Positions 9,077 to 45,835 are shown, numbered from the stretch's first letter. The stretch: 55,301 bases of DNA from Candidatus Roizmanbacteria bacterium RIFCSPHIGHO2_12_FULL_37_23 (GCA_001788095.1 MFZX01000038.1:1-55301); one strand, 5' to 3'. Notes: generated by a model from the sequence alone, not told the origin. Numbers and translations: made by a program.

Positions 9077-9369
9077 ATAACTTTTACAGCCTTCAATAAA
9101 AAAAACGTAATAAAGTAGAATAAAAGCACCTGGAATAGTGGTAAAAATAATGTAAGAAATATTGCTGCAATTGCGTGTAAAAAAAATGCTTCGTTGTGAA
9201 GTGATGGCAAAAGTCCTTTAAGAATGAGCATTATTATTGTCAGGGTTAAAAGTGTTGGTTTATCAAACTCCCATAAAGGCCAGTTGAAATAAACAGCTGC
9301 TCCAATGAAAATGGCAGCAAGGAGAAGAAAAATTTCTTTTGTATCAAAATAGAATGGTCCGAGATACAT
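9073..9369 (-). CDS. small hypothetical membrane protein
   Basis: 98 aa, nearly all hydrophobic, 3-4 TM. Confidence 0.6.
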   Translation of the reverse strand: MYLGPFYFDTKEIFLLLAAIFIGAAVYFNWPLWEFDKPTLLTLTIIMLILKGLLPSLHNEAFFLHAIAAIFLTLFLPLFQVLLFYFITFFLLKAVKVI

Positions 9370-9457
9370 GTTAATTCTTAATGTACCATTCGTTGAAATC
9401 TATTGCAACTCATTAAGCTTGTATCTGAGGGGTGCAAATAAGACCATTCTGTCGCGC

Positions 9458-9486
9458 TTGACAACATTATGTTCGTTATCTATAAT
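9458..9486 (+). promoter_or_regulatory. consensus sigma70 promoter with internal palindrome
   Basis: TTGACA-N17-TATAAT; aacat-t-atgtt at 9463-9473; ATG 7 nt downstream. Confidence 0.75.
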
Positions 9487-9493
9487 ACCTACC

Positions 9494-9718
9494 ATGTCAA
9501 TTGAGAACACATCGAATAAAAAAATATCACTCGATGACTTACCGGATCTTTTAACAATTCGAGAAGTTGCAGAAATTCTACGAGTTTCTCCACTTACTAT
9601 TAAGCGCTGGGGTAAAAGAGGAAAACTCCCTGCAATTCGTATTAATTCTCGTGGCGATCGAAGATATCGCAAAGAAGTGATACTTCGTCTTCTTGGAGTC
9701 GAAAGCACTACAGTATAA
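9494..9718 (+). CDS. excisionase/MerR-like helix-turn-helix DNA-binding protein (HTH_17-type)
   Basis: LLTIREVAEILRVSPLTIKRWGKRGKLPAIRINSRGDRRY; start moved to the ATG after the promoter. Confidence 0.85.
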   Translation: MSIENTSNKKISLDDLPDLLTIREVAEILRVSPLTIKRWGKRGKLPAIRINSRGDRRYRKEVILRLLGVESTTV

Positions 9719-9739: not shown

Positions 9740-10399
9740 ATGATTTTGTATGTAGCTTTTTTCGCCCAAATTATCCTCATCTACTTCATTAGTCAGTGGA
9801 CTATACAGCATCTTTTTCGAGCCTTATATAGAATAACAAAAAGTACGTTCGTAAGTTCTTATATTCTCGCACTACTCTATTTTCCCGGTACTCTTCTTCA
9901 TGAGTTGTCTCACTTTATAACTGCGGTTGCTTTACTTCTCAATGTTAAAGAGATGGATCTCATTCCAGTAGTAAAAAAGTCAGATGATGATAAACGATAT
10001 GTAAAGTTAGGTTCTGTAGTATTTGAACAAAAGGATTATTTCAGGAGTATGCTCGTAGGCATTGCACCTTTTTTTGTAGGACTTGGTTTTTTCTTTTTTA
10101 TGTTTGAGTATGATATTTTCCCTAATGAAAACATATGGATAAATGTGCTTTCGCTCTATCTCCTCTTCTCTGTTTCTTCGAGTATGTTTTCGTCAAAAAA
10201 AGATTTGGAAGGTACAATCATTATTGTCCCGCTCATCATACTTATTTTTTCCATATTAGTAGGGTTTAATATCGATATCACACGAATATTTTTGTCTGAA
10301 ACTACGCTGGAAATCATGAGAAGATTGAATATGTACTTGCTGATTGCAACAGGTGGAAATTCACTAATTTACGTAATTCTACGTCTGTTTCGTATCTAA
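9740..10399 (+). CDS. M50-family membrane metallopeptidase-like protein
   Basis: Multi-TM; FPGTLLHELSH zinc motif; LVGIAPFF. Confidence 0.75.
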   Translation: MILYVAFFAQIILIYFISQWTIQHLFRALYRITKSTFVSSYILALLYFPGTLLHELSHFITAVALLLNVKEMDLIPVVKKSDDDKRYVKLGSVVFEQKDYFRSMLVGIAPFFVGLGFFFFMFEYDIFPNENIWINVLSLYLLFSVSSSMFSSKKDLEGTIIIVPLIILIFSILVGFNIDITRIFLSETTLEIMRRLNMYLLIATGGNSLIYVILRLFRI

Positions 10400-10442: not shown

Positions 10443-10598
10443 ATGCCAGATGAAGCAGATGTATTACCAAAAGGAGAAGCTCCTCCACAATTACCTGCAA
10501 TCGATCAAATCGTTGTTGATTATGAACATGGAACTACAACTTCAGCACATAGACAAGAAATGCTTGATCGATTGTTACAAAAGGCCGAAGAGAAATGA
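10443..10598 (+). CDS. small hypothetical protein (51 aa)
   Basis: Hand-translated MPDEADVLPKGEAPPQ...LLQKAEEK*; ATGA overlap with the next gene. Confidence 0.55.
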   Translation: MPDEADVLPKGEAPPQLPAIDQIVVDYEHGTTTSAHRQEMLDRLLQKAEEK

Positions 10599-10867
10599 AC
10601 ATAATCATATATACAGGGCGAGTATGTCCGTTTTCACAGCAGGTTGTGGATGATATGAAAAGTCAAAATGTGGATTTCATTCATAAGAAGGTCGATGAAG
10701 ATCCAGAAGCGCTTTTAGAAATGTATAAACTTACAAAAAAAATTGCAACACCTGTGATTACTATAGAAAAGGATGATCAAAAATATACACTACTTGGATA
10801 CACACAGGAGAATAAAAAAACGTTACAAAAAATCGTAGAGCTAGCTAAACAAAGTAAACAACTCTAA
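10595..10867 (+). CDS. glutaredoxin/NrdH-like protein (CPFS)
   Basis: IYTGRVCPFS, ATPVITI. Confidence 0.8.
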   Translation: MNIIIYTGRVCPFSQQVVDDMKSQNVDFIHKKVDEDPEALLEMYKLTKKIATPVITIEKDDQKYTLLGYTQENKKTLQKIVELAKQSKQL

Positions 10868-11372: not shown

Positions 11373-11401
11373 CGAGCCGCACGTCATGTGTGCTTCCGTC
11401 C

Positions 11402-12013
11402 CTACGGGGCGGGTGGTGCCGGAGGCGGTGGGGGCGGATCGATTCGCCCGAAACTCTGGGCAACAGACCAACGCCATCGGCGCGTTCCTCCACGCTTGGC
11501 GTAGATACGCCAGCGGACGTACGCGCCTCGACCTCCGTCGATCACTCCTCGACGTGCCTCCAGCTCGAGATCCAGAACTTCGACCACGAACCAGAACCAC
11601 AGGAAGCCGAGACCGACGACGAGGAGAACCGTCCACGGAAGTCCCGCCCAGACAGCGACGGTCAGCGCCAGCAGGAACGCCGCCAGAAGGTACTTCCGTA
11701 ACACGAAGGCTACGACACCTCCTGCGCCAAGCGCAATCGCGCCGATGAGGCGGTAGACGTACTCGTCCATCAGGTGCAGGGCAGGGCCCTGCCAGGACGC
11801 GTACATCAGCCATCCGAGACCGATCAGGATCACAATCGCCACGGGCCACTCGCTCGGCGAGATGCGGCGGTCTTCCAAGACCAGCATCATCAAGCCGACC
11901 AGAATGGCGGCGAAGAGACCCGTCTCCGTGCCGAGTCCCATGACCCGGTCCAAGACGAACCAGACGATGGCCGCGATTGCGACCATTCCGACAAACTTCA
12001 GAAGCGTTCTCAT
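11402..12013 (-). CDS. hypothetical multi-TM membrane protein
   Basis: AAGGAG SD; about 6 hydrophobic segments; Arg-rich then poly-Pro tail. Confidence 0.65.
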   Translation of the reverse strand: MRTLLKFVGMVAIAAIVWFVLDRVMGLGTETGLFAAILVGLMMLVLEDRRISPSEWPVAIVILIGLGWLMYASWQGPALHLMDEYVYRLIGAIALGAGGVVAFVLRKYLLAAFLLALTVAVWAGLPWTVLLVVGLGFLWFWFVVEVLDLELEARRGVIDGGRGAYVRWRIYAKRGGTRRWRWSVAQSFGRIDPPPPPPAPPAP

Positions 12014-12055
12014 TGCCCCATGCTCCTTTCGTGAGTTGGGCAGGTTGGGTTGGTA

Positions 12056-12556
12056 CTACCTAGTTGACCTGCGCGCCACGGGCTTGTACATGAACACTCC
12101 GAGCGTTGCTAGCGTTCTTCCGTTGCGCTGAACGCGACCCCCGGCTCCCGCCGATCTCGCGTTCTTCTGTGGGTAGAAGCGATATCCGCGCGCGAGCGCG
12201 ACGACGAAGGCAGCCACGAGCACGAGCAGGATGATGAGCCAGATCGCAGAACTACCTCCTCCCTGCACCCTGATCGGCTCGATCGACAAACTGCTGACGG
12301 AGGTTCCGACGAACGGGTAGACAATCCACCCGACGACGGTGAGCACGACGACCAAGATCGCGACCAGCTTCCGCAGGCCGAGCGAGCCCAGTAGCACGAC
12401 GAGCGTGCTTACCAAGCCACACATCGACATGAGGAACAGGCCGACGATATACGGCAATGCTCCGATGGCGGTGACGAAAGCCACCACCACCTGCACTGCC
12501 ACGATGGCCACGAGAACGACGATCGCCTTGAGCGTGGACCACGTTCCGGGATTCAT
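12056..12556 (-). CDS. hypothetical membrane protein
   Basis: Start moved to MNPGTW (GGAGGAG SD; ATGA overlap with upstream ORF); about 4 TM. Confidence 0.65.
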   Translation of the reverse strand: MNPGTWSTLKAIVVLVAIVAVQVVVAFVTAIGALPYIVGLFLMSMCGLVSTLVVLLGSLGLRKLVAILVVVLTVVGWIVYPFVGTSVSSLSIEPIRVQGGGSSAIWLIILLVLVAAFVVALARGYRFYPQKNARSAGAGGRVQRNGRTLATLGVFMYKPVARRSTR

Positions 12557-12786
12557 TGCTCTTCTCCTCCCTGTGAGCACGGGTACTCGGCCGGTTGGTC
12601 GAGCATGATGAAGGTAACTGGTTGCTGCACGGTGAGCGCGCTGAGCTCGACTACTTCTGAGCTCGTTACGCTCGAAACGATGTGTCGGTCGATCACGGCG
12701 AATCCCGCGTACATGCCCACGAGGGGCAGCAGCAGGACCAGCGCGCAAAAGACCAGTAGGACTATTCTGTTGTGGGACGGATCCAT
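12553..12786 (-). CDS. hypothetical single-TM protein
   Basis: 77 aa; ATGA coupling to the downstream ORF. Confidence 0.5.
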   Translation of the reverse strand: MDPSHNRIVLLVFCALVLLLPLVGMYAGFAVIDRHIVSSVTSSEVVELSALTVQQPVTFIMLDQPAEYPCSQGGEEQ

Positions 12787-12964
12787 GGGGCGGTGTCTCT
12801 CTTTCTTTTTTGTCTCTAGACGTTAGAGACTGGAAACTAGAAGCTTTATCTAGCTTCCAGATTCCAGCCTCCAACTCTAAAAAAAAACGTGCGACCCGAT
12901 TTTCAAAGAACAAAATAAGCACGAGAATGGGACGCAAATCTCCCATCATGTGCCTAAATATAGC

Positions 12965-13618: not shown

Positions 13619-16600
13619 TTAAGCTACTTTTGTATAACCACCATATTTTTTACTAGAACCAGCAGATGGAGCAATATATACGAGAGGACTTCGCCAGGAA
13701 CTTTCCCCTGGATCTATCTGGCGTTCACCATAGAAGACTGGTAACTGAATATCAGTATTTGTACTTTTCTGGATAGCTAATGTTAAAACTCTTCGTTCAT
13801 CTCCCATAGATGTCGTCGTATGCATTGCTGGATAAAATCTATATCCTAAATCGAGAGTATTGAGGTATTCAAAAAACTTTACCGGATCCATAGGTCTACC
13901 ATCTCCATCGAGAAACAAATTATCAAAACTATAACTTACATTTTCTTGTATATCTCCAATAAAAGCCCAACCTCCATTTCTCAATGCATTTGATGTTTGC
14001 ACAACTGCACCAAGTGGATCCCAAAAAAACTTATAGGCAGCTTCAGATATGATAAGATCTTGCTTCTCTCTACCTAAAACTTGTGTTAAGGTATGGACAT
14101 CAGCCATATGGTGTTCAACAGGAATTAAATGACAATCAGCAAACCTTGTAGCCATGTCGTCTGCAGCGATTGAGGAAAGATGTAGGCGCGAACCTGGAAC
14201 GCGCATTCCGATTACTTGACCCGCTTGTTGGAGAGCAACGTCAAACGTTCCGCCTTCATCTAATATATACATAATTTTACCCTGCTGTTTTCTTCTTCGG
14301 GCAATATCAAAAACCACATCAGCAAAATTCACATCAGGAATTAATGAATATTCTTGTTCATAACGCTTCAGACTTCCCCTATTTCGTGCATAGACAAGAA
14401 AACGATATGCAGGATTTTCTAGATTAGGTTCACGGAATTGTTGTGGTCTAGCTCGATGGGCTACAACCAATCTGTCAATATGGCGACGAAGTTCAAAATC
14501 TGCAAGCCTGACATTTGGATCTCTCTTCAACACCTGAAAAAGAGCTTCTTTTGAAGCTCGATCGCCTGATTGTACAGCGGCGTGTAGAACGTCTTGAATT
14601 TCTACATATCGATCTCGAGCTGTCACAAATTCCTGATCTTCTCTAGTTAACCCTTTTACATAAAAATCCCTAAACCAATCAACCGCTCTCTGAAATCTTC
14701 CTTTAAGAAGACTGTCAATTTTACCTCGTGATAATGGCTGCGTTTGAATCCTTTCAGCTCTACGTAGAGGTTCTGGTGTGGGTTGTCCGGACGACGACTG
14801 CGCTTCACTACGTATATCAACAAGGGTTTCTCTTAATTGATCTCTAAGCCATTGACCTCGTGCTTCACTAATCTCACCTGTAGCAAGCCACTGCATTGAG
14901 GCAAAAATCGTTGATAATCGATACATATTGAATCTTGTACGAGCATTCGGGTCATCAAGTAAATCCGGCCTTCCATATCCCCGCAAGAGCTCTCTAAATC
15001 CATCAGTTCCAGTATTCGGCCTATCGAAAATCGAGAAATACGCGAGATCCAATAAGGGGTCTCCAGCTTTTGCATTTTCAAAATCAAAAATTCCTGTTAG
15101 CCTGCCATTCTGAGAAACCATATTTGAAAGTGAAAAATCACCATGAAGCAATTGTTGCGGTGCGGAGCCTAGAAGTCGTCTATTAGTATTTACATATTCC
15201 AACGCTGCTGCGATATCTGCTGCATCAATAAATCCAGCATCTACAAATGATTGGGCGTGATCTCTTTGCATCGTTCCCGTTATGAAACTTTCCCAGTCTG
15301 GGCTCATTCCTCTCCCATTTCCATCAAGAAAACCATAGCCTGCTGGAACTGGTACGGCATGTATTTTCCTCAGCGCTCTTCCAGCTTGTCTTAAGGAATC
15401 GCGAGTGATATTTCTCCTTACAATTTCTCCGGGTGCTTTTTCAATAACTGATATACACATCCCCTTTATAACAGATCCAGCACTCTCGACTTTAACTACG
15501 GCTGGTACTGGTATCCCCTGTCTCCGAGCTTGATCCATTGCCCATTCTTCAGCGCTATATTTATCTCGACCACTTCTATTATTTATTCTTACTATAAGTT
15601 CTCTGCCATCAGCTGTCCTTACAGAATAAACCCTATTATTAGTCCCTACTTTGTACTCTTGCGCCGAAGTTATATCAACTCCAAGCCAAGAACCAATTGT
15701 TCTGAGCTCATCTGGAAAATTTGCGATTTCTCTCGTATGAGCACGAGGTTCCACACTATGGACCCTTCTCATCCCTTCCTCGAATGCAGATGTATCTGTA
15801 ATTCTAAAATTTCCATCAATTACTTCATACTTCACACCCAGTAATCTCATCGCTGTATTAAAAGCATCAAGACCGCCTCTCGCTCTCCATGATAAGGCGC
15901 TGTGGTAAAATGCAGCTGCTTGACGCTCAAACTCCCTTCGATTAAATCCACCATGACCCTCTCTAACAGCTTTCTCTGTTAATTCTTCACCTGCTTTGCC
16001 CCTGACTGAATCATCTCTATCGAACGCTGAATATTGACTTTGTATAAGTTCTTTCCCTAGAATTCTCACGAGGTCTCTCCTAGGATCCGACAACACAGAA
16101 ATTCTACCGCAATACCTCACGCGATTATTTTCTTGATTTTCACCACCCTTAATCCGTGCTCTCTCAAATCTTCTTCTAACCGGATCCCAGCTTCTTACCC
16201 ATTTAATTTTATTACCTATTTCAACGTCTTCTCCTGCTACGTCATTTTGGTCATAATTCCCAACTGCAGCAACCATTTTCAAGCGCATGGCTGAATTACG
16301 ACCAACAAGGAACGGCTCTCTTGATGTTTTTTTCATATGAGCAAGATCCATTAGTTGCCAAAGTCTACGTGTTGCAAACTGGACTGGTACTCTAGCCATT
16401 AACTCACGGGGGAAATCTATTTTTCCAGCCATTGCATCCATGACTGGATGAGTGTCAAATTCATGAATTATATCGGCAACATATGTAGGCTTTAAAGCTC
16501 CTTGCGGCATGTCAGCATCATTACTTACATAAATCAAATCACTAGAGGGTTTTTTTCTATGTCTAGCAGCATTATCAATAACTGCTGCTGTTGCAATATT

Positions 16601-17497
16601 TCTAATGTTGCCAATCGTCTGAGCACGTGGATCCATCACTCCCTTTACATAATCTATTTGTAACCCCGGAGCTAGACGACGAGCTTCTTCAATCAACCTT
16701 CTTACTTCAGCTCCAGTTTGATCCCGTCTACCACTTGCTGGCCAATTATCAAAAACAACAACCCGAAGTTGACTATAATCAAGCGGTGTGCCATCTCTAT
16801 TTGTTTGACCAACAAAATTCCGTAAAGTTCTATAAATATTTCCCCCTTCTCGAAAAGCAGGCATACAAACAACCGCACGTACGCCATCACCTAACGGTTG
16901 CATTTGATCTGATAAAGACCTCACCTCTCTTAGTCTCTCGGGTGATAGAGAACCAATGTACCACTGATATTCTTCACCTTCTCGTAATTCAGCATCTGGA
17001 CTACTTCTAAGCCTCGGAGACAATTGTTCCCATTTGTCTAGAGGAAGTGCTTGACCATTGTGTCTCTCATCCTTTTTCCATACTCTTCTGTCTCTGGACC
17101 GTATTAAAGGTCCTGTTTTTCGTAGTTGATCTCTACGCTCAAGTAACAACTGTCTTCTCGTCTCTAATCCTTTTCGAGCAAGATTATCATGAGGAGATAA
17201 AGCTTTAAGTTCAGCTTCTACTTGAGCAAGTCTATCTTTAATAGTTTGAGGATTTGGGGCTTCTCTATCTCCCCGTAAAAGTGTTGCTCGAGCTGATATT
17301 ATTGCAACTTCGGCTGCAAGACGATCTCTTTCACCTGCATTTTCTGGTGCTGCACTTCCATTACTTAATACTCCGAGTCGTTTTCTTCTCCACATTAAGT
17401 GGTGTGAAAAGCCTTCGGGATCATAAAGAAGAACACGTTGCTCAATTGGTAATGGACCTGTTTGAAGCTCAAGTGCAGGGGTTGTAGATTCTTGCAT
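13619..17497 (-). CDS. multidomain protein: GT-A (GT2-like) glycosyltransferase + APH/choline-kinase-like phosphotransferase + class I methyltransferase-like domain
   Basis: VVCMPAFRE...VVVFDN...SNDAD...GEDVEIG; LLHGDFSLSN, IFDFE, GDPLLDLA; ILDEGG...QDLIISE...SNALRNGGWAFI. Confidence 0.7.
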   Translation of the reverse strand: MQESTTPALELQTGPLPIEQRVLLYDPEGFSHHLMWRRKRLGVLSNGSAAPENAGERDRLAAEVAIISARATLLRGDREAPNPQTIKDRLAQVEAELKALSPHDNLARKGLETRRQLLLERRDQLRKTGPLIRSRDRRVWKKDERHNGQALPLDKWEQLSPRLRSSPDAELREGEEYQWYIGSLSPERLREVRSLSDQMQPLGDGVRAVVCMPAFREGGNIYRTLRNFVGQTNRDGTPLDYSQLRVVVFDNWPASGRRDQTGAEVRRLIEEARRLAPGLQIDYVKGVMDPRAQTIGNIRNIATAAVIDNAARHRKKPSSDLIYVSNDADMPQGALKPTYVADIIHEFDTHPVMDAMAGKIDFPRELMARVPVQFATRRLWQLMDLAHMKKTSREPFLVGRNSAMRLKMVAAVGNYDQNDVAGEDVEIGNKIKWVRSWDPVRRRFERARIKGGENQENNRVRYCGRISVLSDPRRDLVRILGKELIQSQYSAFDRDDSVRGKAGEELTEKAVREGHGGFNRREFERQAAAFYHSALSWRARGGLDAFNTAMRLLGVKYEVIDGNFRITDTSAFEEGMRRVHSVEPRAHTREIANFPDELRTIGSWLGVDITSAQEYKVGTNNRVYSVRTADGRELIVRINNRSGRDKYSAEEWAMDQARRQGIPVPAVVKVESAGSVIKGMCISVIEKAPGEIVRRNITRDSLRQAGRALRKIHAVPVPAGYGFLDGNGRGMSPDWESFITGTMQRDHAQSFVDAGFIDAADIAAALEYVNTNRRLLGSAPQQLLHGDFSLSNMVSQNGRLTGIFDFENAKAGDPLLDLAYFSIFDRPNTGTDGFRELLRGYGRPDLLDDPNARTRFNMYRLSTIFASMQWLATGEISEARGQWLRDQLRETLVDIRSEAQSSSGQPTPEPLRRAERIQTQPLSRGKIDSLLKGRFQRAVDWFRDFYVKGLTREDQEFVTARDRYVEIQDVLHAAVQSGDRASKEALFQVLKRDPNVRLADFELRRHIDRLVVAHRARPQQFREPNLENPAYRFLVYARNRGSLKRYEQEYSLIPDVNFADVVFDIARRRKQQGKIMYILDEGGTFDVALQQAGQVIGMRVPGSRLHLSSIAADDMATRFADCHLIPVEHHMADVHTLTQVLGREKQDLIISEAAYKFFWDPLGAVVQTSNALRNGGWAFIGDIQENVSYSFDNLFLDGDGRPMDPVKFFEYLNTLDLGYRFYPAMHTTTSMGDERRVLTLAIQKSTNTDIQLPVFYGERQIDPGESSWRSPLVYIAPSAGSSKKYGGYTKVA

Positions 17498-17515: not shown

Positions 17516-20500
17516 TCATATTGGACTTAAAATTGATCGCACTGATCGATATGCAGCTACAAGGGCTTTTAATTTTCTCTCATCACCTGATGTTGCATAC
17601 GCTGCGTAACCAGGATTTACCGCGATAAACTTTCCAAGTGCTTGGACATATCTATTACGTTCAGTATCATCGGCTGTTATTGGCGCAATTATTGGTTCAA
17701 GTTGAGCTTTTACTGTATTTGACAGGGTTCCATCATCTCTCTCTAGAGCATCGAAGTCTGCGTTGCTCTCAAGGAATGACCAAAGATTATTAAAAAAACG
17801 CTCTGCTTCTTGTGCTGATATTTCTCTTAATTCTCGACTTGATAAATAGTCATTTATTTTTCGTTTTGCATCATCTTTTTCTGTATCTAGAAGAAGTGGA
17901 GTATTATCAATGTGAACATGAAGTCTCGATCTAACCTCGGAATATTCTTCTCTTCTTTGTTCGTCACCTATTTGCCCATATCCTGTTTCATATTGTGTGT
18001 ATGGAGTTGGTACTTCTTCTTCTGGCGGCTCGCGTCTTGTTCCTGGTTCCATCTCCTCCAGCGGTTTGCGGCGGATCATGGGGATTGGTATTATTGGAAT
18101 AGGTTCGCCTCCTGGAACTGCTTCGTGAATAATCTGGGGAATATCTTTTGTTATATCACCACACAGATCTATGAGCGGTTCTGTTCCTATCTGACCCCCA
18201 CCCAATTCCCCTGTTCCCATACCGGTTGCAAAGACTTTAAGTACTTTTTCTCCATCTTGTTCTGTATACCAGCTTGGTTCCCAAAATCCTCTTTTTCCAT
18301 CTACGCCAAGCCTAAAAACTTCACGTCTGCCATAATATTCAGTTCCAATATTGCCGTCAGCGTATTGATTAAGAGCATCCTGATCTACTAACATACGTGA
18401 GACTTCACCCAACGTTGTTCGTGTTCCATCTGACAATTCTATTTCTGCTGTACTACTTGGGTCCAAATGAAGTAAACCATCTGCGACTCCATCTGCACTA
18501 TCAGGAATCCAGATAGGTTTATCGGTCATACCTGGTAGACTAAAGGCAAAACCCGCTTGTCCCCCGCTTATAACTTGTTGTACATCAATAGGATTTGGGC
18601 TCAATCCTTTTTGCCATCCAACAGCCATTTTGCTCATATCTAATATCAAGGTATTCCCTCTTTTTATGGTATATGCACGTAGTTCGTTGTTCTGGGAACC
18701 TGCCTGGTCATATGCATACCACTCTCTTCGATCAATTTCCGTATGGGCTTTATCCCAAAAAGCCAAGGCATCATCTTTTGTAGCAATATGTGTCCCTCCT
18801 TCGGTGATATTAATCGTGGTATCATCCATGCCTGGACCATATGTCCAGCCTGGCACTATCTCGCCGGTCTGAGGATCAAAACTAAGGTCTTCAACAAGCA
18901 CGTGTGTTGGGTCGCTTTGCAACACCAAATCCCATTTCGCAGGATCAACAGGATCGGGAATCAAGGTGGTGCCTTCAGGAATATGGACGTTTTGTCCAGT
19001 GGCATTAAAAACATATGAATCTCTATCTTCAAGAATGACTTCCTTTAAAGGAGGGAATTTGGTGAGATCGCTCGTATCAATTTGGTGAATATCGAATCCG
19101 GCATTTTCTAGGGCTTCCTGAATATCTGGGTCTAATTCACCAAAAATAGAAAGGTTACCATCAGCATCTAGTACTATATCAGGAAGATCACCAGCAAGCG
19201 GTAAGTGGGTATCTGCATCCCACAGCTCAATTGCCCCTGTACCAGGATCGATAACAGCTTCATACTCAATACCATTAACTTCACCAAGATCTAAAACACC
19301 TCCGGCTTTAAGCTGGGCAACTAATTCTTCTCTGGTAAAACCTGTAGGTGGGAGATTTTCAAAAGGACCACCGAGCTCAGAAAGTTTCTCGAGTACTTCT
19401 CGAACTCCAGGCGTGTGTTCAAGAGCGGTTAATGTTGAAGCGCGAATATGTCTCATCACGCCAAGCTCTCCTAATTCTTGTAAAACAATACCTGAAACTA
19501 AACCAGTTATGGCTCCTTCTCCCGCAGCGATAGAAGTTTGTTTGAGCTGGAACCATTTATAGGCACGATCTTTAGAAGCTTTATCACTAATGAGTCTGTC
19601 AAGCCATTGACTCTCAAAATCACCAGTAATTCTTGTAACATCAGCGTCGCTCATCCCAGCTCTGCGAAGGGCAACTTTTGCAGCAGCGATGTTTCTAACA
19701 AGCTCAAATCTCTCTTGTTCAACAGTTTCTCGGGATGAAAAACTAATAAGATCAATTTTGTCTCCTGTCGATTTATCAAGACGTGTGCGTATTTCAGCAA
19801 CACGGGAAAGTATATCTTGTCGTAATTCATCATTGGTAGGATTGGTACTAAGACGATCGAGCATGGCTTGTAATCCTTCTCTATCTTTTCCGCGAACTTC
19901 ATCTCGATTTCCACCATCGAGAAGATCTGCTGCTTGAGCCATGTCATAGGTAAGCGTATCCATTTCTTTTCTTCTCTTTGCTGTGTCAGGAGAAACCATA
20001 CCATACGCTCGTTCACCCATATGCATAGCGCGGTCAATCTTGACTTCCCGCCAGCGTCGTAGAGCCCCATACCCTGCGCCCACCAAAGAACCGGCAAGTG
20101 GCGCAGCCATCATCGCACGAAGCGTAGTTCGGGGAATTCGAAGAACTGCCGTTGTACCTATAGCTGTTGCTGCCCCAAGAAATGCAGGAGTCCAAAAGGG
20201 TGCAGTATATTTATTTTTTCTCCCAAATGCAGCCATTTTGTCTGCAAGCGTCTCATTAATTTCTGTTTGTCTCGCCCACTGCGCATTTGAAAGCTTGATG
20301 GATATTTTTTGATCAAGTTGATCGAGTGAATAACGATGAGCAGCAATATCTGCACGTACTATACTACCCATCTCTAAAAGATCTGTAGCAAAAAGTTTCG
20401 CTGCTTCTCCATATTGATTTGCTTCTATGCCAAATAGCCTCCTAACAACATCTTCGTCCCCATGAGCTTCCATAAATTCCGCAAGTCTCTTCTGTATATC

Positions 20501-21058
20501 TTCCTCATTTGTTATGGTTCCATTAACTACTGGGCGAATGATTTCATCTAAAAGAAGTCTCTTGAGTTCATCTTCTGCTTCAACCACTCCGGCGCGATCG
20601 GCTCCTCTTTCCTCTACTTCAGTTTTCAATTCTCCAATTTTGGCTTGGCCAGATTCGAAATATTTATCACTTTCATGGGTGGCATCTGCTGCAATTCCGC
20701 GAACAAAATCCATTGATAGAAACGAGTTGTTATTATTATTCATCGCCTCAACAGTCGATTCTGTCCATTTTTGGCGATAGTATTCCTCAAAAACATGAAA
20801 TTTCTTTCTCTGTAAAAAGCTAGAGACACGCTCAGACCATGTCCACGGTTTATACCATTTTCTTTCTGAAGGACCAGCCTCCCGCTGTTGGTGACGAATT
20901 TCTTCTTCAGTAAGTTCTCGAGCTCTTTTTCGAACATCAATAGTACGATTGACGATATAGAACTCGCGACGAAGATGAGCGAGATCACCAGGATCTTCTA
21001 CTGGCTCAGGTATTGGTTCTGGTTCTCCCCCTATTGGTGGTGCTTCTAAGTCTTGCAT
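17516..21058 (-). CDS. large hypothetical membrane protein with Gly/Ala-rich helices and an acidic central domain
   Basis: 1180 aa; AFLGAATAIGTTAV, PLAGSLVGAGYGA, IAAGEGAITGLVSGIV segments. Confidence 0.7.
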   Translation of the reverse strand: MQDLEAPPIGGEPEPIPEPVEDPGDLAHLRREFYIVNRTIDVRKRARELTEEEIRHQQREAGPSERKWYKPWTWSERVSSFLQRKKFHVFEEYYRQKWTESTVEAMNNNNNSFLSMDFVRGIAADATHESDKYFESGQAKIGELKTEVEERGADRAGVVEAEDELKRLLLDEIIRPVVNGTITNEEDIQKRLAEFMEAHGDEDVVRRLFGIEANQYGEAAKLFATDLLEMGSIVRADIAAHRYSLDQLDQKISIKLSNAQWARQTEINETLADKMAAFGRKNKYTAPFWTPAFLGAATAIGTTAVLRIPRTTLRAMMAAPLAGSLVGAGYGALRRWREVKIDRAMHMGERAYGMVSPDTAKRRKEMDTLTYDMAQAADLLDGGNRDEVRGKDREGLQAMLDRLSTNPTNDELRQDILSRVAEIRTRLDKSTGDKIDLISFSSRETVEQERFELVRNIAAAKVALRRAGMSDADVTRITGDFESQWLDRLISDKASKDRAYKWFQLKQTSIAAGEGAITGLVSGIVLQELGELGVMRHIRASTLTALEHTPGVREVLEKLSELGGPFENLPPTGFTREELVAQLKAGGVLDLGEVNGIEYEAVIDPGTGAIELWDADTHLPLAGDLPDIVLDADGNLSIFGELDPDIQEALENAGFDIHQIDTSDLTKFPPLKEVILEDRDSYVFNATGQNVHIPEGTTLIPDPVDPAKWDLVLQSDPTHVLVEDLSFDPQTGEIVPGWTYGPGMDDTTINITEGGTHIATKDDALAFWDKAHTEIDRREWYAYDQAGSQNNELRAYTIKRGNTLILDMSKMAVGWQKGLSPNPIDVQQVISGGQAGFAFSLPGMTDKPIWIPDSADGVADGLLHLDPSSTAEIELSDGTRTTLGEVSRMLVDQDALNQYADGNIGTEYYGRREVFRLGVDGKRGFWEPSWYTEQDGEKVLKVFATGMGTGELGGGQIGTEPLIDLCGDITKDIPQIIHEAVPGGEPIPIIPIPMIRRKPLEEMEPGTRREPPEEEVPTPYTQYETGYGQIGDEQRREEYSEVRSRLHVHIDNTPLLLDTEKDDAKRKINDYLSSRELREISAQEAERFFNNLWSFLESNADFDALERDDGTLSNTVKAQLEPIIAPITADDTERNRYVQALGKFIAVNPGYAAYATSGDERKLKALVAAYRSVRSILSPI

Positions 21059-21189: not shown

Positions 21190-21564
21190 TTAATTTGCTC
21201 CTTCCCCTTCCCGAGCTTTTTTAACGTTCCCCAGATATAACTGTCTAAAATCTGCAAATGCCTTTGCAAAAACCTCTTTTGAATGAGGCATGTTGTCTAT
21301 CAAAAATTTTTCAATCTCTTCTCTCGACTTCTTCTCTTCGTTCATTTTGATAAATTCATCCAAATGCATTTTTGGTAAAGCGGTTGCAACAACGGATGTG
21401 ATATATGCATCAAGTCTTAAATAGAGTTCTTTTATCATCTCCTCTTTCATATCATCATCTTCCATGGTCATTCCTGCATCCTGAAGCATCCCCTCTAAAT
21501 ATGTACGTACTTCTTGAGGTATGGTGAGCTGGTTATTCTGTTGTTGTGTATTTTGATCGTCCAT
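21190..21564 (-). CDS. DUF5663-like CPR protein
   Basis: YLEGMLQDAG...EMIKEL...LDAYI...FAKAFADFRQLYL pattern recalled from CPR proteins; AGGGGGTGA SD. Confidence 0.6.
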   Translation of the reverse strand: MDDQNTQQQNNQLTIPQEVRTYLEGMLQDAGMTMEDDDMKEEMIKELYLRLDAYITSVVATALPKMHLDEFIKMNEEKKSREEIEKFLIDNMPHSKEVFAKAFADFRQLYLGNVKKAREGEGAN

Positions 21565-23361: not shown

Positions 23362-24045
23362 TTATTTCGCTGGAAAGTCTGGAATTTTAGGACCTTGCGG
23401 CGCTGGAGGAGTCTGAGGAATTGGTTCTTTAGGTTTCTCAGGTGTTAAAGGAACCTGTGGCATCTGGGGAACTGCAGGAGTCACTGGTTCTTGAGGGGCT
23501 TGAGGTGCCGGTGGAGTTTGTGGAGTTTGGGTCGGCTGGACTCCTAAATCTACACCGCCTTTTGATTTAAGATCATTTAAAATTCCATCAAGCTCTTCCT
23601 GTGCTTTGGTTGTCTGATTAACTTTGATGCCATCTGAGCTCTTTGGATCTTGTAGATTTGTAGTAGTTTGCTGGTTAGAACTTGGAGGTTGTCCTGCTTG
23701 AACAGCTTGCTTTGCTTGTTGCACATTCTGATTTACTGGAGTACTCGTTCCGGCACTTTGTGGTTTGGTTGGTTCACCCGCTTTTGCTGCTTCGGTTGTC
23801 AAGGCTGTATCAAACTCAGGTTGTGTAAATCCCTTAAGCATAACTTTCTGTCCATCATCCTTTTCAATTACAGTGAAAGGGACTCCAGCAAAATTATTTG
23901 AGACTGTAAGCATTGCAGAGAGAGCTTCACGATCTTGATCTACTCTTTTTTCATCAAATGGAAGACTTTTGCTTGTCAAATACGCTTTTACATCTTTACA
24001 AAATGCGCTTTTATCATCTGCTATGGTATATAAGGTAATTTTCAT
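23362..24045 (-). CDS. glutaredoxin-like domain (SxxC) with Pro/Gln-rich tail
   Basis: ITLYT...SAFCKDVKAYL...GVPFTVIE...LKGF. Confidence 0.7.
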   Translation of the reverse strand: MKITLYTIADDKSAFCKDVKAYLTSKSLPFDEKRVDQDREALSAMLTVSNNFAGVPFTVIEKDDGQKVMLKGFTQPEFDTALTTEAAKAGEPTKPQSAGTSTPVNQNVQQAKQAVQAGQPPSSNQQTTTNLQDPKSSDGIKVNQTTKAQEELDGILNDLKSKGGVDLGVQPTQTPQTPPAPQAPQEPVTPAVPQMPQVPLTPEKPKEPIPQTPPAPQGPKIPDFPAK

Positions 24046-32632: not shown

Positions 32633-32663
32633 CTCAAATCCCACCTCGGGAGTGGGATTTGAG
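32633..32663. repeat. REP palindrome, left of RAYT
   Basis: ctcaaatcccac-ctcggga-gtgggatttgag. Confidence 0.85.
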
Positions 32664-33323
32664 CTTGGAGTTCGACTTTAGCCTCTTTTGATAGTCCGCT
32701 CTATCTAAAACGAATTTCATGTATGAATCTCTGTTTGAAAAATAAGACAAAATTTTCTCTGTAGCTATTAAATCGTCTTTCTCCTTGCCAGAATAGAAAG
32801 AAAGCGATGAATATTTATATTGCAGAAGCTCTTCAGTTGAAGACAAGACTCCTGAACTATAAGGATTGAGATGAATATAGGCAGAAGTGTGAATAAATTG
32901 TTCTCTAGTTTTAATATGTTGGGTTTTAAACCTACCTTGATATAGAGGCCCAACTCTTTCTATCGCTGTATTTAGATAGCGAGCATAACTATTCTCAAAA
33001 TTTGACATAAATATAGAAATACCATGATCGGATAATTGTTTGAGCTGAAAATGAAAATGATTAGGCATTAATACAAAACTTAAAATTTCAACGTGGAATT
33101 TCTTTTCTGAGCGGGTTTTATCAAAAAGTACTTGCTGCTCACAGGGTGGTAATTTATTAAAATCTGATAACTTCATAGGTAGATTGACATTTTGATAAAA
33201 AAATATTGCTTTATAAGCTCTCTCGTATGATTCTCTACCTGAAAAAATCTTTTGGCGATTAACACCTCTATTATAGACGTGATAATATTCTCCTTGAATT
33301 AGTGGAATCTTTCTTCCTGGCAT
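32634..33323 (-). mobile_element. REP-associated tyrosine transposase (RAYT, IS200/Y1 family)
   Basis: YYHVYNRG, FVLMPNHFH (HUH), YQGRFK, YIHLNP; flanked by two REPs. Confidence 0.88.
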
Positions 33324-42798: not shown

Positions 42799-42835
42799 AT
42801 TATACCTTATAGAGTTCTCGTGATATAATATGCAC

Positions 42836-43543
42836 ATGTTCGAGACATTTGTACAGCATTTGATAGAGGCCCGTGTACCAGAGTACACTATTATTTTGCT
42901 ATTATATCTACCGCTTGTTTCATTGGTTGTGACATTTTCACGATATATCATTGGATGGAAAAGTCTCAGCATTTATTCATCAATACTCCTTACGTTCGCT
43001 TTATATCATATGTCGCGTGATGTTTCTGGTGAAGTTTTCTTGATTATAGGATTGGTGCAAGGTGGAATCCTGATATTCTTCTCTTCTCTAGTAGCTTTGC
43101 TCCTACAAATTTTTCTCGCTGAAATCCGATTACATTATCTTGCAAAAATAAGTATAGCAATGTCGTTTGTTACAATTGTGATTTTTATGTTGCTATATTT
43201 TGCGTCAGAAGTAGTGAATGATACATTCATAAAACTGAATCCAATATCGGTCCTTATTGTCATCGTTGTAATGGAAATTTTTATCAGAAGCTATATTCGT
43301 AAGGGATGGCGTAAGTCTCTTATATTGATTGCAAACACTATTGGCCTTTCTTATGTGATGTTTATTATTCTTGCACAAAATTCTTTTAAAGAATTTGTTT
43401 TAAAACATCCTGAAGTTATTATATACTCGATTGTTCTAAATATAATAATCGGTAGCTGGAGAGGTTTGCGTATAAGCGAATTTTTACGTTTTAAAGATAT
43501 ACATTCCACAACCTTCTATGATTCCGAATATCCTAAGGAATAA
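42836..43543 (+). CDS. 7TM-domain membrane protein of the ATP-grasp-associated (7TM_transglut-like) type
   Basis: LLLYLPLV..VVTFSRYIIG, IIGSWRGLRISEFLRF; TG-A-TATAAT abuts 42830, so the second ATG is preferred. Confidence 0.75.
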   Translation: MFETFVQHLIEARVPEYTIILLLYLPLVSLVVTFSRYIIGWKSLSIYSSILLTFALYHMSRDVSGEVFLIIGLVQGGILIFFSSLVALLLQIFLAEIRLHYLAKISIAMSFVTIVIFMLLYFASEVVNDTFIKLNPISVLIVIVVMEIFIRSYIRKGWRKSLILIANTIGLSYVMFIILAQNSFKEFVLKHPEVIIYSIVLNIIIGSWRGLRISEFLRFKDIHSTTFYDSEYPKE

Positions 43544-44954: not shown

Positions 44955-45835
44955 AAAAACAAAAAAAAATTCTGATACTTAGATCAATATATAGCCCTAT
45001 TGATGAAAAAAACTTACATCTTTTGACAAAAACCCCTGAGATTGAGCTTGGATACTATAAAGATCTGGTAATAGACTTCATGTCACATCCTAAAAAAACA
45101 TCCGTTAGTATAAATAACGTTCCATTAGAATCATATAAGCTAGTATATATGCGAACGTGGAAAAAACGTCATCTATTAACTCGCTCACTAGCGCAATATT
45201 TGCAACATCACAAGGTAATTCTCATTGATACTGAAAGCCTCAATGCGACACACGGAGACAAACTTATGCAATATATGATGTTTTATACTCATAAACTCCC
45301 TTTTCCCAAAACGCTTTATATACCACGAGAATCAATGTTAAAAAAAATAGAGCTCATCAAAAAGGCTTTTAAAACTCCTTTTATCATGAAAGCAACGTTT
45401 TCCTCAAAAGGAAAGGACAATTATCTCATTCGTGATTTTGATAGTGTAGAAAAGATTTTAACAAAGCATGATGAAGACGAAGATTTTCTCTTTCAGGAAT
45501 ATATACCGAACGATTTTGATTACCGCCTATATGTGTTTGGTTATAAAACAGTTGTTGCATATAAAAGAACTCGTTCAAAACGTTCACGAACTCATCTAAA
45601 CAATCTCAGTCAAGGAGCAGAAGGAGAAGAGGTTCCGCTCAAAAATATAAAAAAATTGTGTGTATTAGCAGAAAAAATTGCACGAATTTCTCGAATCGAA
45701 GTATGTGGTGTGGATATCGTAGAGAATAAATATACAAGAAAACCTTATTTATTTGAGATAAATATTGTCCCAGGATTAAGCCAAACCACCGCGCAGATGC
45801 ATCTAAAAAAATATTTGCTTTCTCTTGTTAAATAA
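44951..45835 (+). CDS. RimK-family ATP-grasp ligase
   Basis: FIMKATFSSKG, FQEYIPNDFDYR, NNLSQG, GVDIV, FEINIVPG. Confidence 0.8.
   Translation: MKKQKKILILRSIYSPIDEKNLHLLTKTPEIELGYYKDLVIDFMSHPKKTSVSINNVPLESYKLVYMRTWKKRHLLTRSLAQYLQHHKVILIDTESLNATHGDKLMQYMMFYTHKLPFPKTLYIPRESMLKKIELIKKAFKTPFIMKATFSSKGKDNYLIRDFDSVEKILTKHDEDEDFLFQEYIPNDFDYRLYVFGYKTVVAYKRTRSKRSRTHLNNLSQGAEGEEVPLKNIKKLCVLAEKIARISRIEVCGVDIVENKYTRKPYLFEINIVPGLSQTTAQMHLKKYLLSLVK

What the first reader, a model, noticed from the sequence alone, without database searches (positions are those of the whole stretch)
13619..17497. Three-enzyme fusion: glycosyltransferase, phosphotransferase and methyltransferase-like domain
Seen: a GT-A with a DxD (NDAD) at about 16050-16880, an APH-like kinase with intact HGDxxxxN/DFE at about 14820-15700, and a Rossmann MTase-like domain with a degenerate motif I (DEGGT) at about 13750-14300. 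There is no signal peptide. Inference: either a single-polypeptide line for making a capped or modified glycan, or a multi-warhead effector. I do not recognise this architecture.
Basis: partly seen in the sequence, partly recalled or inferred. Interest (0 to 1): 0.62.

Follow-up and report, generated by a model that had tools for sequence, protein, structure and literature searches.

The report
Detached three-enzyme head of a CPR giant
A tiny uncultured bacterium (Patescibacteria) encodes a real 1292-residue protein joining a sugar-transferase, a small-molecule-type kinase and a methyltransferase-like domain. It appears to be the detached "enzyme head" of a widespread but unstudied two-gene system, and what it acts on is still unknown.

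Summary
Window 13619-17497 (-) is one intact 1292-aa ORF with no signal peptide or TM segment. It has four modules:
- a very divergent GT2-like GT-A domain (140-583), with NDAD invariant in 31/31 family copies and a GED motif;
- an APH-type kinase (601-899; Pfam E=2.5e-31; the nearest solved structure is hygromycin B 4-O-kinase);
- a helical bundle plus a class I methyltransferase fold (925-1292; pLDDT 89) with an atypical glycine loop (DEGGTFD).

The architecture is rare: about 15 clusters in 5.8 billion proteins, 1 of 401 sampled Patescibacteria species, and annotated at most as "phosphotransferase".

New here: in 22 other giant proteins the homologous GT is fused to a core homologous to the upstream neighbour (17516-21058). 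A DUF5663 gene precedes that core, as at 21190-21564. So this protein is a split-off head of the DUF5663-giant system.

The best guess (about 0.4) is a membrane-tethered, producer-side enzyme that adds a sugar and then phosphorylates and methylates it, as Klebsiella O7 ORF6 and E. coli WbdD do. A host-directed effector (about 0.25) is not excluded.

The parts
21190..21564 (-). DUF5663 small acidic helical protein (124 aa), first gene of the cassette
   Evidence: Pfam PF18908 E=5.6e-6, 27.3 bits against a cut-off of 23.7. It is the only copy in the genome. A DUF5663 hit lies 1.4-5 kb upstream on the same strand as the GT domain in 11 of 14 GT-positive genomes, one of those hits being below the family cut-off. 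It is also upstream in L005, L007, L008 and L023-L026.
17516..21058 (-). P0002, the 1180-aa 'core' protein. It comprises the P2N module (residues 31-559), a beta-rich acidic middle (558-990) and a helical tail (992-1180). It ends 18 bp before the tri-enzyme gene.
   Evidence: No Pfam, NCBIfam or PHROG hit. Homologues lie immediately upstream of the tri-enzyme gene in L004, L005, L007, L008 and L010. The P2N profile matches the N-terminal parts of 22 giants that end in the homologous GT domain, at E 7e-12 to 3e-35.
20060..20197 (-). Gly/Ala-rich hydrophobic pair in P0002 (residues 288-333), a possible membrane hairpin
   Evidence: Kyte-Doolittle 19-residue peaks of 1.31 and 1.31. Equivalent segments occur at about 250-300 in P0016, P0059, P0060 and P0072.
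19454..19537 (-). Third moderately hydrophobic segment of P0002 (residues 508-535)
   Evidence: Peak of 1.41, with equivalents at about 460-505 in fused homologues. Whether it spans a membrane is not settled.
17519..18085 (-). P2tail (residues 992-1180). It is a helical tail that begins at the junction motif IPMIRRKPLE and occupies the position where fused relatives carry the GT head. It is the proposed docking partner of the N-terminal module.
   Evidence: Alignment A7, mean column identity 53%. A P..R.PLE-type motif lies about 40 aa before the GT in 8 of 22 fused giants. The tail gives a strong match in 1 of 401 phylum genomes, the window's own.
13619..17497 (-). The tri-enzyme ORF (P0001, 1292 aa)
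   Evidence: There are 13 full-length homologues at 40-51% identity, plus a Daviesbacteria orthologue, P0049.
17084..17497 (-). N-terminal helical module (residues 1-138), a candidate docking or localisation domain
   Evidence: Alignment A4 has invariant P27, R37, E63, R70, L74, D77, R114, L118 and R121. An exhaustive profile search of 1.84 billion representatives found only about 10 clean clusters. It is shared with proteins carrying other C-terminal parts: P0025, P0027, P0028, P0029, P0031, P0032 and P0034.
15749..17080 (-). GT2-like GT-A glycosyltransferase domain (residues 140-583). The DxD motif (NDAD) is at 16511-16522 and GED at 16226-16234.
   Evidence: It is homologous to the C-terminal GT of P0016 and P0054-P0074.
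14801..15697 (-). APH-type kinase (residues 601-899). The catalytic loop HGDFSLSN is at 15122-15145 and DFE at 15077-15085.
   Evidence: Pfam PF01636 E=2.5e-31. The best PDB profile match is hygromycin B 4-O-kinase at E=1.9e-19. R637, E650, H785, D787, N792, D805 and E807 are invariant.
14288..14725 (-). Helical bundle (residues 925-1070) preceding the methyltransferase fold
   Evidence: The AF2 model shows helices H2-H147 at pLDDT mostly 85-98.
13622..14287 (-). Class I (Rossmann-type) methyltransferase fold (residues 1071-1292). The atypical motif I, ILDEGGTFD, is at 14240-14266.
   Evidence: AF2 pLDDT 89, with Foldseek matches to class I methyltransferases. D1080, G1082, G1083, T1084, D1086, D1113 and D1133 are invariant. 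The orthologue P0006 gives a sub-threshold Methyltransf_11 hit.

Best explanation
The gene encodes a cytoplasmic four-module protein: an N-terminal helical docking module, a GT2-like inverting glycosyltransferase, an APH(4)-like small-molecule kinase, and a helical bundle plus class I methyltransferase fold.

It is the detached enzyme 'head' of the Patescibacteria DUF5663 + giant-core system. In most relatives one GT head is fused covalently to the core. Here the core (P0002) ends in a 190-aa helical tail, and the head is a separate polypeptide that starts with the N-terminal module.

Most likely mechanism. P0002, helped by DUF5663 and held at the membrane by its Gly/Ala-rich hydrophobic helices, recruits the tri-enzyme to the cytoplasmic face of the producer's membrane. 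There the GT adds a sugar from a nucleotide-sugar to an envelope-bound acceptor. The kinase phosphorylates a sugar hydroxyl, and the methyltransferase-like domain methylates the phosphate or the sugar. The result is a decorated or capped glycoconjugate, analogous to methyl-phosphate capping by E. coli WbdD and Klebsiella O7 ORF6.

Shown: the domain identities, the intact and conserved catalytic motifs of the GT and the kinase, the MTase fold, the gene linkage, and the fusion evidence linking P0002 to the GT.

Inferred: the tail-to-N-module docking, the membrane side, the donor and acceptor, the order of reactions, and whether the third domain binds SAM.
For: 1. The domains are confirmed.
2. 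The catalytic motifs are under strong conservation. NDAD is present in 31/31 copies, ED in 26-28/31, and all kinase catalytic residues are invariant.
3. Fusion evidence: 22 giants read P2N-core ... GT, where the window has P0002 followed by the tri-enzyme. DUF5663 lies upstream in both layouts.
4. The kinase is nearest to enzymes that phosphorylate sugar hydroxyls (APH(4), E=1.9e-19).
5. A characterised precedent carries MTase, an aminoglycoside-kinase-like kinase, a coiled coil and GT2 modules in one polypeptide and makes a methyl-phosphate cap (PMC11231755). WbdD uses a eukaryotic-type kinase for the same chemistry (PMC3482155). This parallels relative P0059, whose head is GT plus a Pkinase domain.
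6. In P0027 the N-terminal module is followed by a hydrophobic anchor, a Pro/Thr linker and a GH5-like domain. There the module is probably a cytoplasmic part of a membrane protein rather than an export signal.
7. Glycan context in some loci. L006 and L009 hold a GT2 and a 1106-aa polytopic membrane protein. The N-module protein P0031 ends a cluster of GT2 genes with an MTase and a PIG-L gene.
8. No conserved immunity-like gene lies downstream.
9. The tail and the N-module share the same rare phyletic pattern: each gives a strong match only in the window's genome among 401 species.
Against: - No ABC transporter, flippase or sugar-nucleotide gene lies next to the window gene.
- There is no sequence similarity to WbdD. 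It is absent from the PDB profile hits at E<=1.
- The domain order differs from both ORF6 and WbdD.
- The glycine loop of the methyltransferase fold is atypical (GGTFD instead of GxGxG), so SAM binding is unproven. Foldseek also matches the non-catalytic pseudo-methyltransferase region of fatty acid synthase.
- If all three hydrophobic segments of the core span the membrane, the head position would lie outside the cell. A nucleotide-sugar enzyme would not suit that location.
- The distribution is patchy: 0 of 60 relatives, and the GT in 14 of 401 phylum genomes.
- N-module proteins occur in shuffled tandem arrays.
- One orthologue carries PP2C and one relative carries a Hanks kinase. These would also fit an effector or protein-modifying role.
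Confidence: 0.4

Rival explanations
1. Host-directed multi-enzyme effector. P0002, with DUF5663 as a chaperone, inserts its Gly/Ala-rich helices into a target membrane. It delivers the non-covalently docked tri-enzyme into the host bacterium, where host targets are glycosylated, phosphorylated and methylated using the host's own UDP-sugars, ATP and SAM.
For: - The N-terminal module is shared by proteins with different C-terminal parts (a GH5-like domain and several unknown domains). Some of these lie in tandem arrays beside the cassette.
- The distribution is patchy and accessory.
- The hydrophobic segments of the core are only moderately hydrophobic (1.2-1.9), as in proteins that insert conditionally.
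- PP2C and Hanks-kinase variants exist.
- A VirD4-type coupling protein lies next to the module in L026 and G365, and T4SS pilin genes lie within 7 kb in L004 and L022.
Against: - The T4SS linkage is not general. It holds in only 1 of 14 GT-positive genomes, and in the window's genome the T4SS genes are on other contigs.
- No conserved immunity gene lies downstream.
- The tri-enzyme is evenly conserved along its length at 40-51% identity, not polymorphic.
- In P0027 the N-module precedes a membrane anchor, so there it probably stays in the producer's cytoplasm.
- The kinase is of the small-molecule APH type.
Confidence: 0.25
2. Protein-modifying enzyme. The three domains post-translationally modify a protein by glycosylation, phosphorylation and methylation. 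The target could be the giant core P0002 itself or a surface protein before export. On this reading the cassette is a self-contained substrate-plus-modifier unit.
For: - The gene is tightly and exclusively linked to P0002 and DUF5663, with no glycan-export genes nearby.
- Relatives carry a Hanks Ser/Thr kinase or PP2C, which usually act on proteins.
Against: - The best kinase relatives act on small molecules.
- GT2-type GT-A enzymes mostly act on lipid-linked or glycan acceptors. This rests on general knowledge and was not tested here.
- No modification-site repeats were identified in P0002.
Confidence: 0.12
3. Xenobiotic-inactivating multi-enzyme. The three domains are independent drug-modifying activities (glycosylation, phosphorylation, methylation) that protect an epibiont living next to antibiotic producers, like the bifunctional AAC/APH resistance enzymes.
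For: The nearest solved kinase relatives are antibiotic kinases: APH(4), APH(2''), and the capreomycin, viomycin and macrolide phosphotransferases.
Against: - Every NCBIfam resistance model is far below its cut-off, for example APH(3') at 35 bits against 205.
- The GT is homologous to the heads of a membrane-core family, not to the GT-B drug glycosyltransferases.
- Obligatory linkage to P0002 and DUF5663 is unexplained on this reading.
Confidence: 0.05

Closest known systems
Klebsiella pneumoniae O7 ORF6, an O-polysaccharide polymerase-terminator (PMC11231755)
   Same: One polypeptide combines a class I methyltransferase, an aminoglycoside-kinase-like (AmiN-like) kinase, a helical or coiled-coil segment and GT2 modules. 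It is cytoplasmic, and its kinase acts on a sugar hydroxyl.
   Different: The order there is MTase-kinase-CBM-coiled coil-GT2-GT2, against N-module-GT2-kinase-helical bundle-MTase here. ORF6 lies in an ABC-transporter-dependent O-antigen cluster of a Gram-negative bacterium, and no such genes lie near the window gene. Sequence relatedness to ORF6 itself could not be tested, because it is not in the libraries searched. The motif I glycines are present in ORF6 but replaced here.
E. coli O9a WbdD, a bifunctional kinase-methyltransferase chain terminator (PMC3482155)
   Same: A kinase and a methyltransferase in one protein, with a helical extension that organises the complex. The product is a methyl-phosphate on a terminal sugar.
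   Different: The WbdD kinase has the eukaryotic protein kinase fold, the GT (WbdA) is a separate protein, and the coiled coil is C-terminal. WbdD was not among the PDB profile hits at E<=1.
DUF5663 + giant-core proteins of Patescibacteria with a C-terminal GT2-like head (uncharacterised; no paper mentions DUF5663)
   Same: The GT domain is homologous (25-35% identity, same invariant NDAD). A homologous core (P2N) is encoded next door, and DUF5663 lies upstream.
   Different: Here the head is a separate polypeptide. It carries two further enzyme domains plus a dedicated N-terminal module, and the core ends in a helical tail instead of an enzyme.
Hygromycin B 4-O-kinase APH(4)-Ia (PDB 3w0r, 3tyk)
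   Same: It is the best solved relative of the kinase domain (E=1.9e-19). The catalytic HxD....N and D-x-E motifs are shared.
   Different: Every NCBIfam aminoglycoside-kinase model matched, APH(4)-Ia included, scores far below its cut-off. The kinase here is embedded in a 1292-aa multi-domain protein, and its substrate is unknown.

Membership tests
GT-A fold / GT2-like glycosyltransferases | GT-A (Rossmann-like) nucleotide-sugar-binding fold | tested here: met
   The AF2 model of 139-600 has GT2/GT-A enzymes as its best Foldseek PDB matches (PcManGT 6yv7, TarP 6h4f, GtrB 9nye), with probability 0.98-1.0 over about 150 columns (410 for PcManGT) and E about 5e-4. The model is of only moderate confidence (pLDDT 67), and residues 392-470 are poorly modelled.
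GT-A fold / GT2-like glycosyltransferases | DxD metal- and nucleotide-binding motif | tested here: met
   N326-D327-A328-D329. N, D and D are present in 31/31 domain copies across the wider family.
GT-A fold / GT2-like glycosyltransferases | Acidic catalytic base in a (G/T)ED motif of the C-terminal half (inverting GT2) | tested here: inconclusive
   G422-E423-D424 is conserved (E in 26/31, D in 28/31) and lies within the weak Glyco_trans_2_3 match. This part of the model has low confidence, so its position in the active site is not shown.
GT-A fold / GT2-like glycosyltransferases | Score above the Pfam gathering threshold for a GT2 family | tested here: not met
   PF13632 scores 17.4 bits against a cut-off of 27. 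There is no PDB sequence hit with the family profile.
APH / phosphotransferase enzyme family (PF01636) | Score above the Pfam gathering threshold | tested here: met
   109.7 bits against 23.2, E=2.5e-31, residues 613-842.
APH / phosphotransferase enzyme family (PF01636) | Catalytic loop HxDxxxxN and the metal-binding D of the D-x-E (DFG-equivalent) motif | tested here: met
   H785, G786, D787, N792, D805 and E807 are invariant in 13 sequences.
Named aminoglycoside or macrolide resistance kinases (NCBIfam equivalogs) | Score above the curated NCBIfam cut-off | tested here: not met
   The best is APH(3') at 35.1 bits against 205. All others are far below their cut-offs.
Class I SAM-dependent methyltransferases | Seven-stranded Rossmann-like methyltransferase fold | tested here: met
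   The AF2 model has pLDDT 89.2. There are 392 PDB matches at E<=1e-3, and the 50 best listed are all class I methyltransferases apart from four chains of the fatty-acid-synthase Psi/KR tri-domain.
Class I SAM-dependent methyltransferases | Motif I glycine-rich loop (D/E)xGxGxG | tested here: not met
   The sequence is D1080-E-G-G-T-F-D1086. Only the first glycine position is kept. The loop is invariant in the family.
Class I SAM-dependent methyltransferases | Acidic residue after strand 2 (ribose) and after strand 3 (adenine) | tested here: inconclusive
   Invariant D1113 follows strand 1105-1111 and invariant D1133 follows strand 1127-1131. Contact with SAM was not modelled.
Class I SAM-dependent methyltransferases | SAM binding and methyl transfer | not testable with these tools
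   This needs ITC, DSF or an activity assay.
Kinase-methyltransferase glycan chain terminators (WbdD / ORF6-O7 type) | Kinase and methyltransferase in one polypeptide with a helical or coiled-coil element | tested here: met
   Whether the N-module forms a coiled coil was not tested.
Kinase-methyltransferase glycan chain terminators (WbdD / ORF6-O7 type) | Location in an ABC-transporter-dependent polysaccharide gene cluster | tested here: not met
   No ABC transporter or sugar-nucleotide genes were seen among the window ORFs scanned, which covered all ORFs of 150 aa or more.
Kinase-methyltransferase glycan chain terminators (WbdD / ORF6-O7 type) | Sequence homology to WbdD | tested here: not met
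   WbdD chains are absent from the PDB profile hits at E<=1.
Kinase-methyltransferase glycan chain terminators (WbdD / ORF6-O7 type) | Methyl-phosphate product on a terminal sugar | not testable with these tools
   This needs in vitro reactions followed by MS or NMR.
DUF5663 + giant-core system of Patescibacteria | DUF5663 gene directly upstream of a giant with the P2N core | tested here: met
   The order is window 21190-21564 (DUF5663), then P0002, then the tri-enzyme. The same order is seen in L005, L007, L008 and L023-L026 and in 11 of 14 genomes.
DUF5663 + giant-core system of Patescibacteria | Enzyme head homologous to the family's GT head | tested here: met
   The GT profile matches 22 fused giants at E 1e-24 to 4e-62.
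Polymorphic toxin / secreted effector systems | Shared N-terminal trafficking domain with variable C-terminal cargo | tested here: inconclusive
   The N-module is shared by about 10 clusters with different C-terminal parts. In P0027 it precedes a membrane anchor, which argues against an export signal.
Polymorphic toxin / secreted effector systems | Cognate immunity gene conserved immediately downstream | tested here: not met
   The downstream ORFs (182, 172, 188 and 208 aa) are not homologous to each other at E<=1e-3.
Polymorphic toxin / secreted effector systems | Consistent linkage to a secretion system | tested here: not met
   A VirD4-like gene is adjacent in L026 and G365 only. It is far away or on other contigs in the other genomes that have one, including the window's own.

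The most novel reading that the evidence does not exclude
The DUF5663 + giant core is a Patescibacteria-wide delivery or presentation platform. This window holds its 'plug-in' version: the core ends in an adaptor tail, and any protein that starts with the 115-aa N-terminal module can dock on it non-covalently. Such proteins include the tri-enzyme, a GH5-like hydrolase and several unknown domains. On this reading the tri-enzyme is a detachable three-activity cargo that is passed to the host bacterium and rewrites a host target by glycosylation, phosphorylation and methylation.
Probability: 0.2. Interest if true: 0.85.

Novelty: new variant of a known kind. Interest (0 to 1): 0.55.

Why it matters
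Patescibacteria make up a large share of bacterial diversity, yet little is known of how they build their envelopes or deal with their hosts. The DUF5663 + giant-core pair is widespread in the phylum and no paper in the searched library mentions DUF5663.

This locus is a natural 'split' of that system. It separates the core from its enzyme head and shows that the head can be a three-enzyme assembly with its own docking module. That gives an experimentally tractable handle: two small interacting pieces (tail and N-module) and three assayable activities. With it one can find out what the whole family does.

If the chemistry is GT, then kinase, then methyltransferase on a glycan, it would extend methyl-phosphate-type capping, known only from Gram-negative O antigens, to ultra-small monoderm-like bacteria.

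Tried and rejected
- **Sequence-level PDB relatives.** Family-profile searches gave none for the GT or the C-terminal domain. Only fold comparison worked.
- **PHROGs.** A scan of ten neighbouring ORFs gave no phage signal, apart from an excisionase-type HTH at 9368-9718 and a thioredoxin-like hit. A prophage origin is rejected.
- **T4SS linkage.** T4SS pilin and VirD4-like genes of the window's genome lie on other contigs. Among 14 GT-positive genomes only G365 has VirD4 adjacent. Together with L026 this is about what small genomes with several coupling-protein copies would give by chance, so no claim is made.
- **Genomic-island composition.** The tri-enzyme gene has 39-43% GC against about 36-40% in the flanks. 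The really deviant stretch, at 61-64% GC, is 11400-12600 and is a separate feature.
- **Paralogues.** There are none in the genome, apart from an unrelated APH-like pseudogene on C35.
- **Close relatives.** 0 of 60 genomes of the same family and order carry the C-terminal domain.
- **The C-terminal domain elsewhere.** It was found only in the tri-enzyme family.
- **Structure jobs.** P0002, DUF5663 and the N-module could therefore not be modelled.

Full report
**1. The observation**

Window 13619-17497 on the minus strand is a single intact ORF of 1292 codons. No 19-residue window reaches a hydropathy typical of a signal peptide or TM helix.

- **Kinase.** It is unambiguous. Pfam APH (PF01636) covers residues 613-842 at E=2.5e-31, 109.7 bits against a cut-off of 23.2. 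A profile of 13 homologues hits hygromycin B 4-O-kinase best among all PDB sequences (E=1.9e-19), followed by APH(2''), capreomycin, viomycin and macrolide kinases. The catalytic residues H785, D787, N792, D805 and E807, plus R637 and E650 in the N-lobe, are invariant. No NCBIfam resistance-kinase model comes near its cut-off.
- **Glycosyltransferase.** It is very divergent. The only Pfam hit is sub-threshold (Glyco_trans_2_3, residues 335-429, E=0.0039), and there is no PDB sequence relative. An AlphaFold2 model of residues 139-600 (pLDDT 67; core 75-90) has GT-A/GT2 enzymes as its best Foldseek matches: PcManGT, TarP, GtrB, GlcAT and COLGALT1. The NDAD motif is invariant.
- **C-terminal region.** It has no sequence relative in Pfam or the PDB. 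It models with high confidence (pLDDT 89.2, pTM 0.89) as a helical bundle (925-1070) followed by a class I methyltransferase fold. There are 392 PDB matches at E<=1e-3, and the 50 best listed are all class I methyltransferases apart from four chains of the human fatty-acid-synthase Psi/KR tri-domain. The loop and the acidic residues after strands 2 and 3 (D1113, D1133) are invariant in the family.

**2. How common it is**

A word-indexed search of 5.8 billion protein clusters found 13 full-length homologues at 40-51% identity, all from metagenomes or MAGs. A later search added a Daviesbacteria orthologue annotated only as 'phosphotransferase'. Named members are Patescibacteria.

The genome that holds the window is 1.09 Mb, 95% complete, and has one copy. 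None of 60 genomes of the same family or order has the C-terminal domain. The C-terminal domain was found in no other architecture.

**3. A fourth module**

Residues 1-138 form a conserved helical module with invariant P27, R37, E63, R70, L74, D77, R114, L118 and R121. BLAST among the ORFs of the homologues' contigs showed the same module at the N-terminus of two other proteins in locus L005, of 582 and 746 aa.

An exhaustive HMMER search of 1.84 billion representatives found only about ten clusters with a clean N-terminal match. Their C-terminal parts differ:

- P0027 has a hydrophobic anchor, a Pro/Thr linker and a GH5-like domain.
- P0029 has two N-modules in tandem.
- P0028, P0031, P0032 and P0034 carry unknown domains.

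These proteins can lie in tandem arrays beside the cassette (L005, L021).

**4. The neighbours and the fusion evidence**

The gene upstream is P0002 (17516-21058, 1180 aa, no family hit). It ends 18 bp before the tri-enzyme. It has homologues immediately upstream of the tri-enzyme in five of the seven other loci examined. Upstream of P0002 lies a 124-aa DUF5663 protein.

Searching with the GT region alone found a further 25 proteins that carry the GT domain outside the tri-enzyme family, most of them 1330-1740 aa; one search had already returned P0016. Local HMM profiles show that 22 of these 26 have the N-terminal core of P0002 (P2N) at their N-terminus (E 7e-12 to 3e-35) and the GT at their C-terminus (E 1e-24 to 4e-62). 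In the three such fused giants whose loci were fetched (P0016, P0060 and P0059; four loci, L023-L026) a DUF5663 gene lies directly upstream.

In a sample of 401 Patescibacteria species the GT occurs in 14, always in a giant ORF. A DUF5663 hit lies 1.4-5 kb upstream on the same strand in 11 of them, one of those hits being below the family cut-off.

So the tri-enzyme's GT is the 'head' of the DUF5663 + giant-core system, and the window holds a split version. P0002 keeps the core but ends, after a junction motif (IPMIRRKPLE, residues 992-1001), in a 190-aa helical tail. The same kind of motif lies about 40 aa before the GT in 8 of 22 fused giants.

The tail and the N-module each give a strong match in only one of the 401 species, the window's own genome, where they are encoded 18 bp apart. 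This shared rare pattern is what a docking pair would show. The interaction itself is inferred.

Other head variants exist:

- two GT copies in tandem (P0050-P0052);
- GT plus a Hanks-type protein kinase (P0059);
- GT plus APH (P0053);
- the tri-enzyme with an added PP2C phosphatase (P0006).

Across 31 GT copies, N326, D327 and D329 are invariant, and E423 and D424 are kept in 26 and 28. The GT is therefore very probably active.

**5. What it most likely does**

Two readings remain.

I rank first (about 0.4) a producer-side, membrane-tethered enzyme that builds and decorates a glycoconjugate. The GT adds a sugar, the APH(4)-like kinase phosphorylates a sugar hydroxyl, and the methyltransferase-like domain methylates the phosphate or the sugar.

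- The same module set in one polypeptide has been characterised in Klebsiella O7 ORF6. That protein combines a methyltransferase, an AmiN-like aminoglycoside-kinase-fold kinase, a coiled coil and two GT2 modules, and its product is a methyl-phosphate cap (PMC11231755).
- E. coli WbdD does the same chemistry with a eukaryotic-type kinase (PMC3482155). This mirrors the APH and Pkinase alternatives seen here.
- The N-module precedes a membrane anchor in P0027, so it probably is a cytoplasmic docking part rather than an export signal.
- Some loci have a glycan context. L006 and L009 hold a GT2 and a polytopic 1106-aa membrane protein. In L022 an N-module protein sits at the end of a cluster of GT2 genes with an MTase and a PIG-L gene.
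- No conserved immunity-like gene follows.

Against this reading:

- No exporter or sugar-nucleotide genes lie nearby.
- There is no sequence similarity to WbdD, and the domain order is different.
- The SAM loop is atypical.
- The membrane topology of the core is unresolved.

The second reading (about 0.25) is a host-directed effector, delivered with the help of P0002's Gly/Ala-rich helices and DUF5663.

- For it: the modular N-module repertoire, the patchy distribution, the PP2C and Hanks-kinase variants, and occasional neighbouring T4SS genes (L004, L022, L026, G365).

Protein modification (about 0.12) and drug inactivation (about 0.05) are less likely.

**6. Comparison with what is known, and novelty**

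Each catalytic domain belongs to a known fold class. The combination GT + kinase + MTase has a functional precedent in O-antigen terminators. Several things are new:

- the domain order;
- the extreme divergence of the GT and methyltransferase domains;
- the dedicated N-terminal module;
- above all, the link to the DUF5663 + giant-core system, for which no paper in the searched library mentions DUF5663.

Earlier notes of this scan had independently described the DUF5663-giant pair with exchangeable heads in many genomes. I reached the same conclusion from my own searches before reading them. They are not independent evidence. None of the notes shown describes a split head.

I class the finding as a new variant of a known kind, of moderate to good interest. 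It offers a tractable way into an unstudied, phylum-wide system.

Noticed in passing
window 11400-12600: A sharp GC-rich stretch (61-64% GC against about 35-43% around it) that carries TM-rich, Arg-rich overlapping ORFs (11402-12013 and 12056-12949, both on the minus strand). None has a family hit.
   Followed up: partly
window 9368-9718 (+): A 116-aa ORF with an excisionase/MerR-type HTH (PHROG hits to excisionases, E down to 1.5e-10). It lies between the subtilase gene and the block of unknown genes. No integrase was seen in the window.
   Followed up: no
window 10595-10867 (+) and 23362-24045 (-): Two glutaredoxin/thioredoxin-like ORFs flank the cassette region. The second carries a long Pro/Gln/Thr-rich tail (Pfam Glutaredoxin E=1.2e-5; PHROG thioredoxin domain).
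   Followed up: no
window 9740-10399 (+); L004 15587-16180: A 219-aa polytopic membrane protein has a 39%-identical homologue in locus L004. There it lies about 4 kb from the tri-enzyme gene and next to a run of four small homologous ORFs, three of which carry T4SS_pilin hits.
   Followed up: partly
L005 8761-15104 (-): A tandem array opposite the cassette. It holds two proteins with the N-terminal module (582 and 746 aa) and a 645-aa protein whose family also occurs in L004 and L010. N- and C-terminal pieces are shuffled among these proteins and L021.
   Followed up: partly
L010 584-5335 (P0006): One orthologue of the tri-enzyme carries an extra C-terminal PP2C phosphatase domain (PF13672, E=1.3e-5), which makes it a four-enzyme protein.
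   Followed up: partly
L026 5672-13790: A VirD4/TraG-type coupling protein (845 aa) is followed by DUF5663 and a 1742-aa giant with the P2N core, the GT and a Hanks-type kinase. All lie directly after the ribosomal protein/SecY operon.
   Followed up: partly
L006 5670-8993; L009 6367-9687: A conserved 1106-aa polytopic membrane protein with a large C-terminal domain and no Pfam hit lies near the tri-enzyme gene and a GT2 gene in two loci. It could be a GT-C-type transferase.
   Followed up: no
window 42830-45835 (+): A cluster of a 7TM_transglut membrane protein, a sugar-transfer-associated ATP-grasp fused to a Zn-protease-like domain, and a RimK-like ATP-grasp.
   Followed up: no
window 32634-33323 (-): An IS200-like (Y1 transposase) gene sits inside the cohesin-dockerin adhesin block.
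   Followed up: no
G000 C35:9060-9758 (-): The only other APH-like stretch in the genome is interrupted by a TAG stop. It may be a pseudogene.
   Followed up: no
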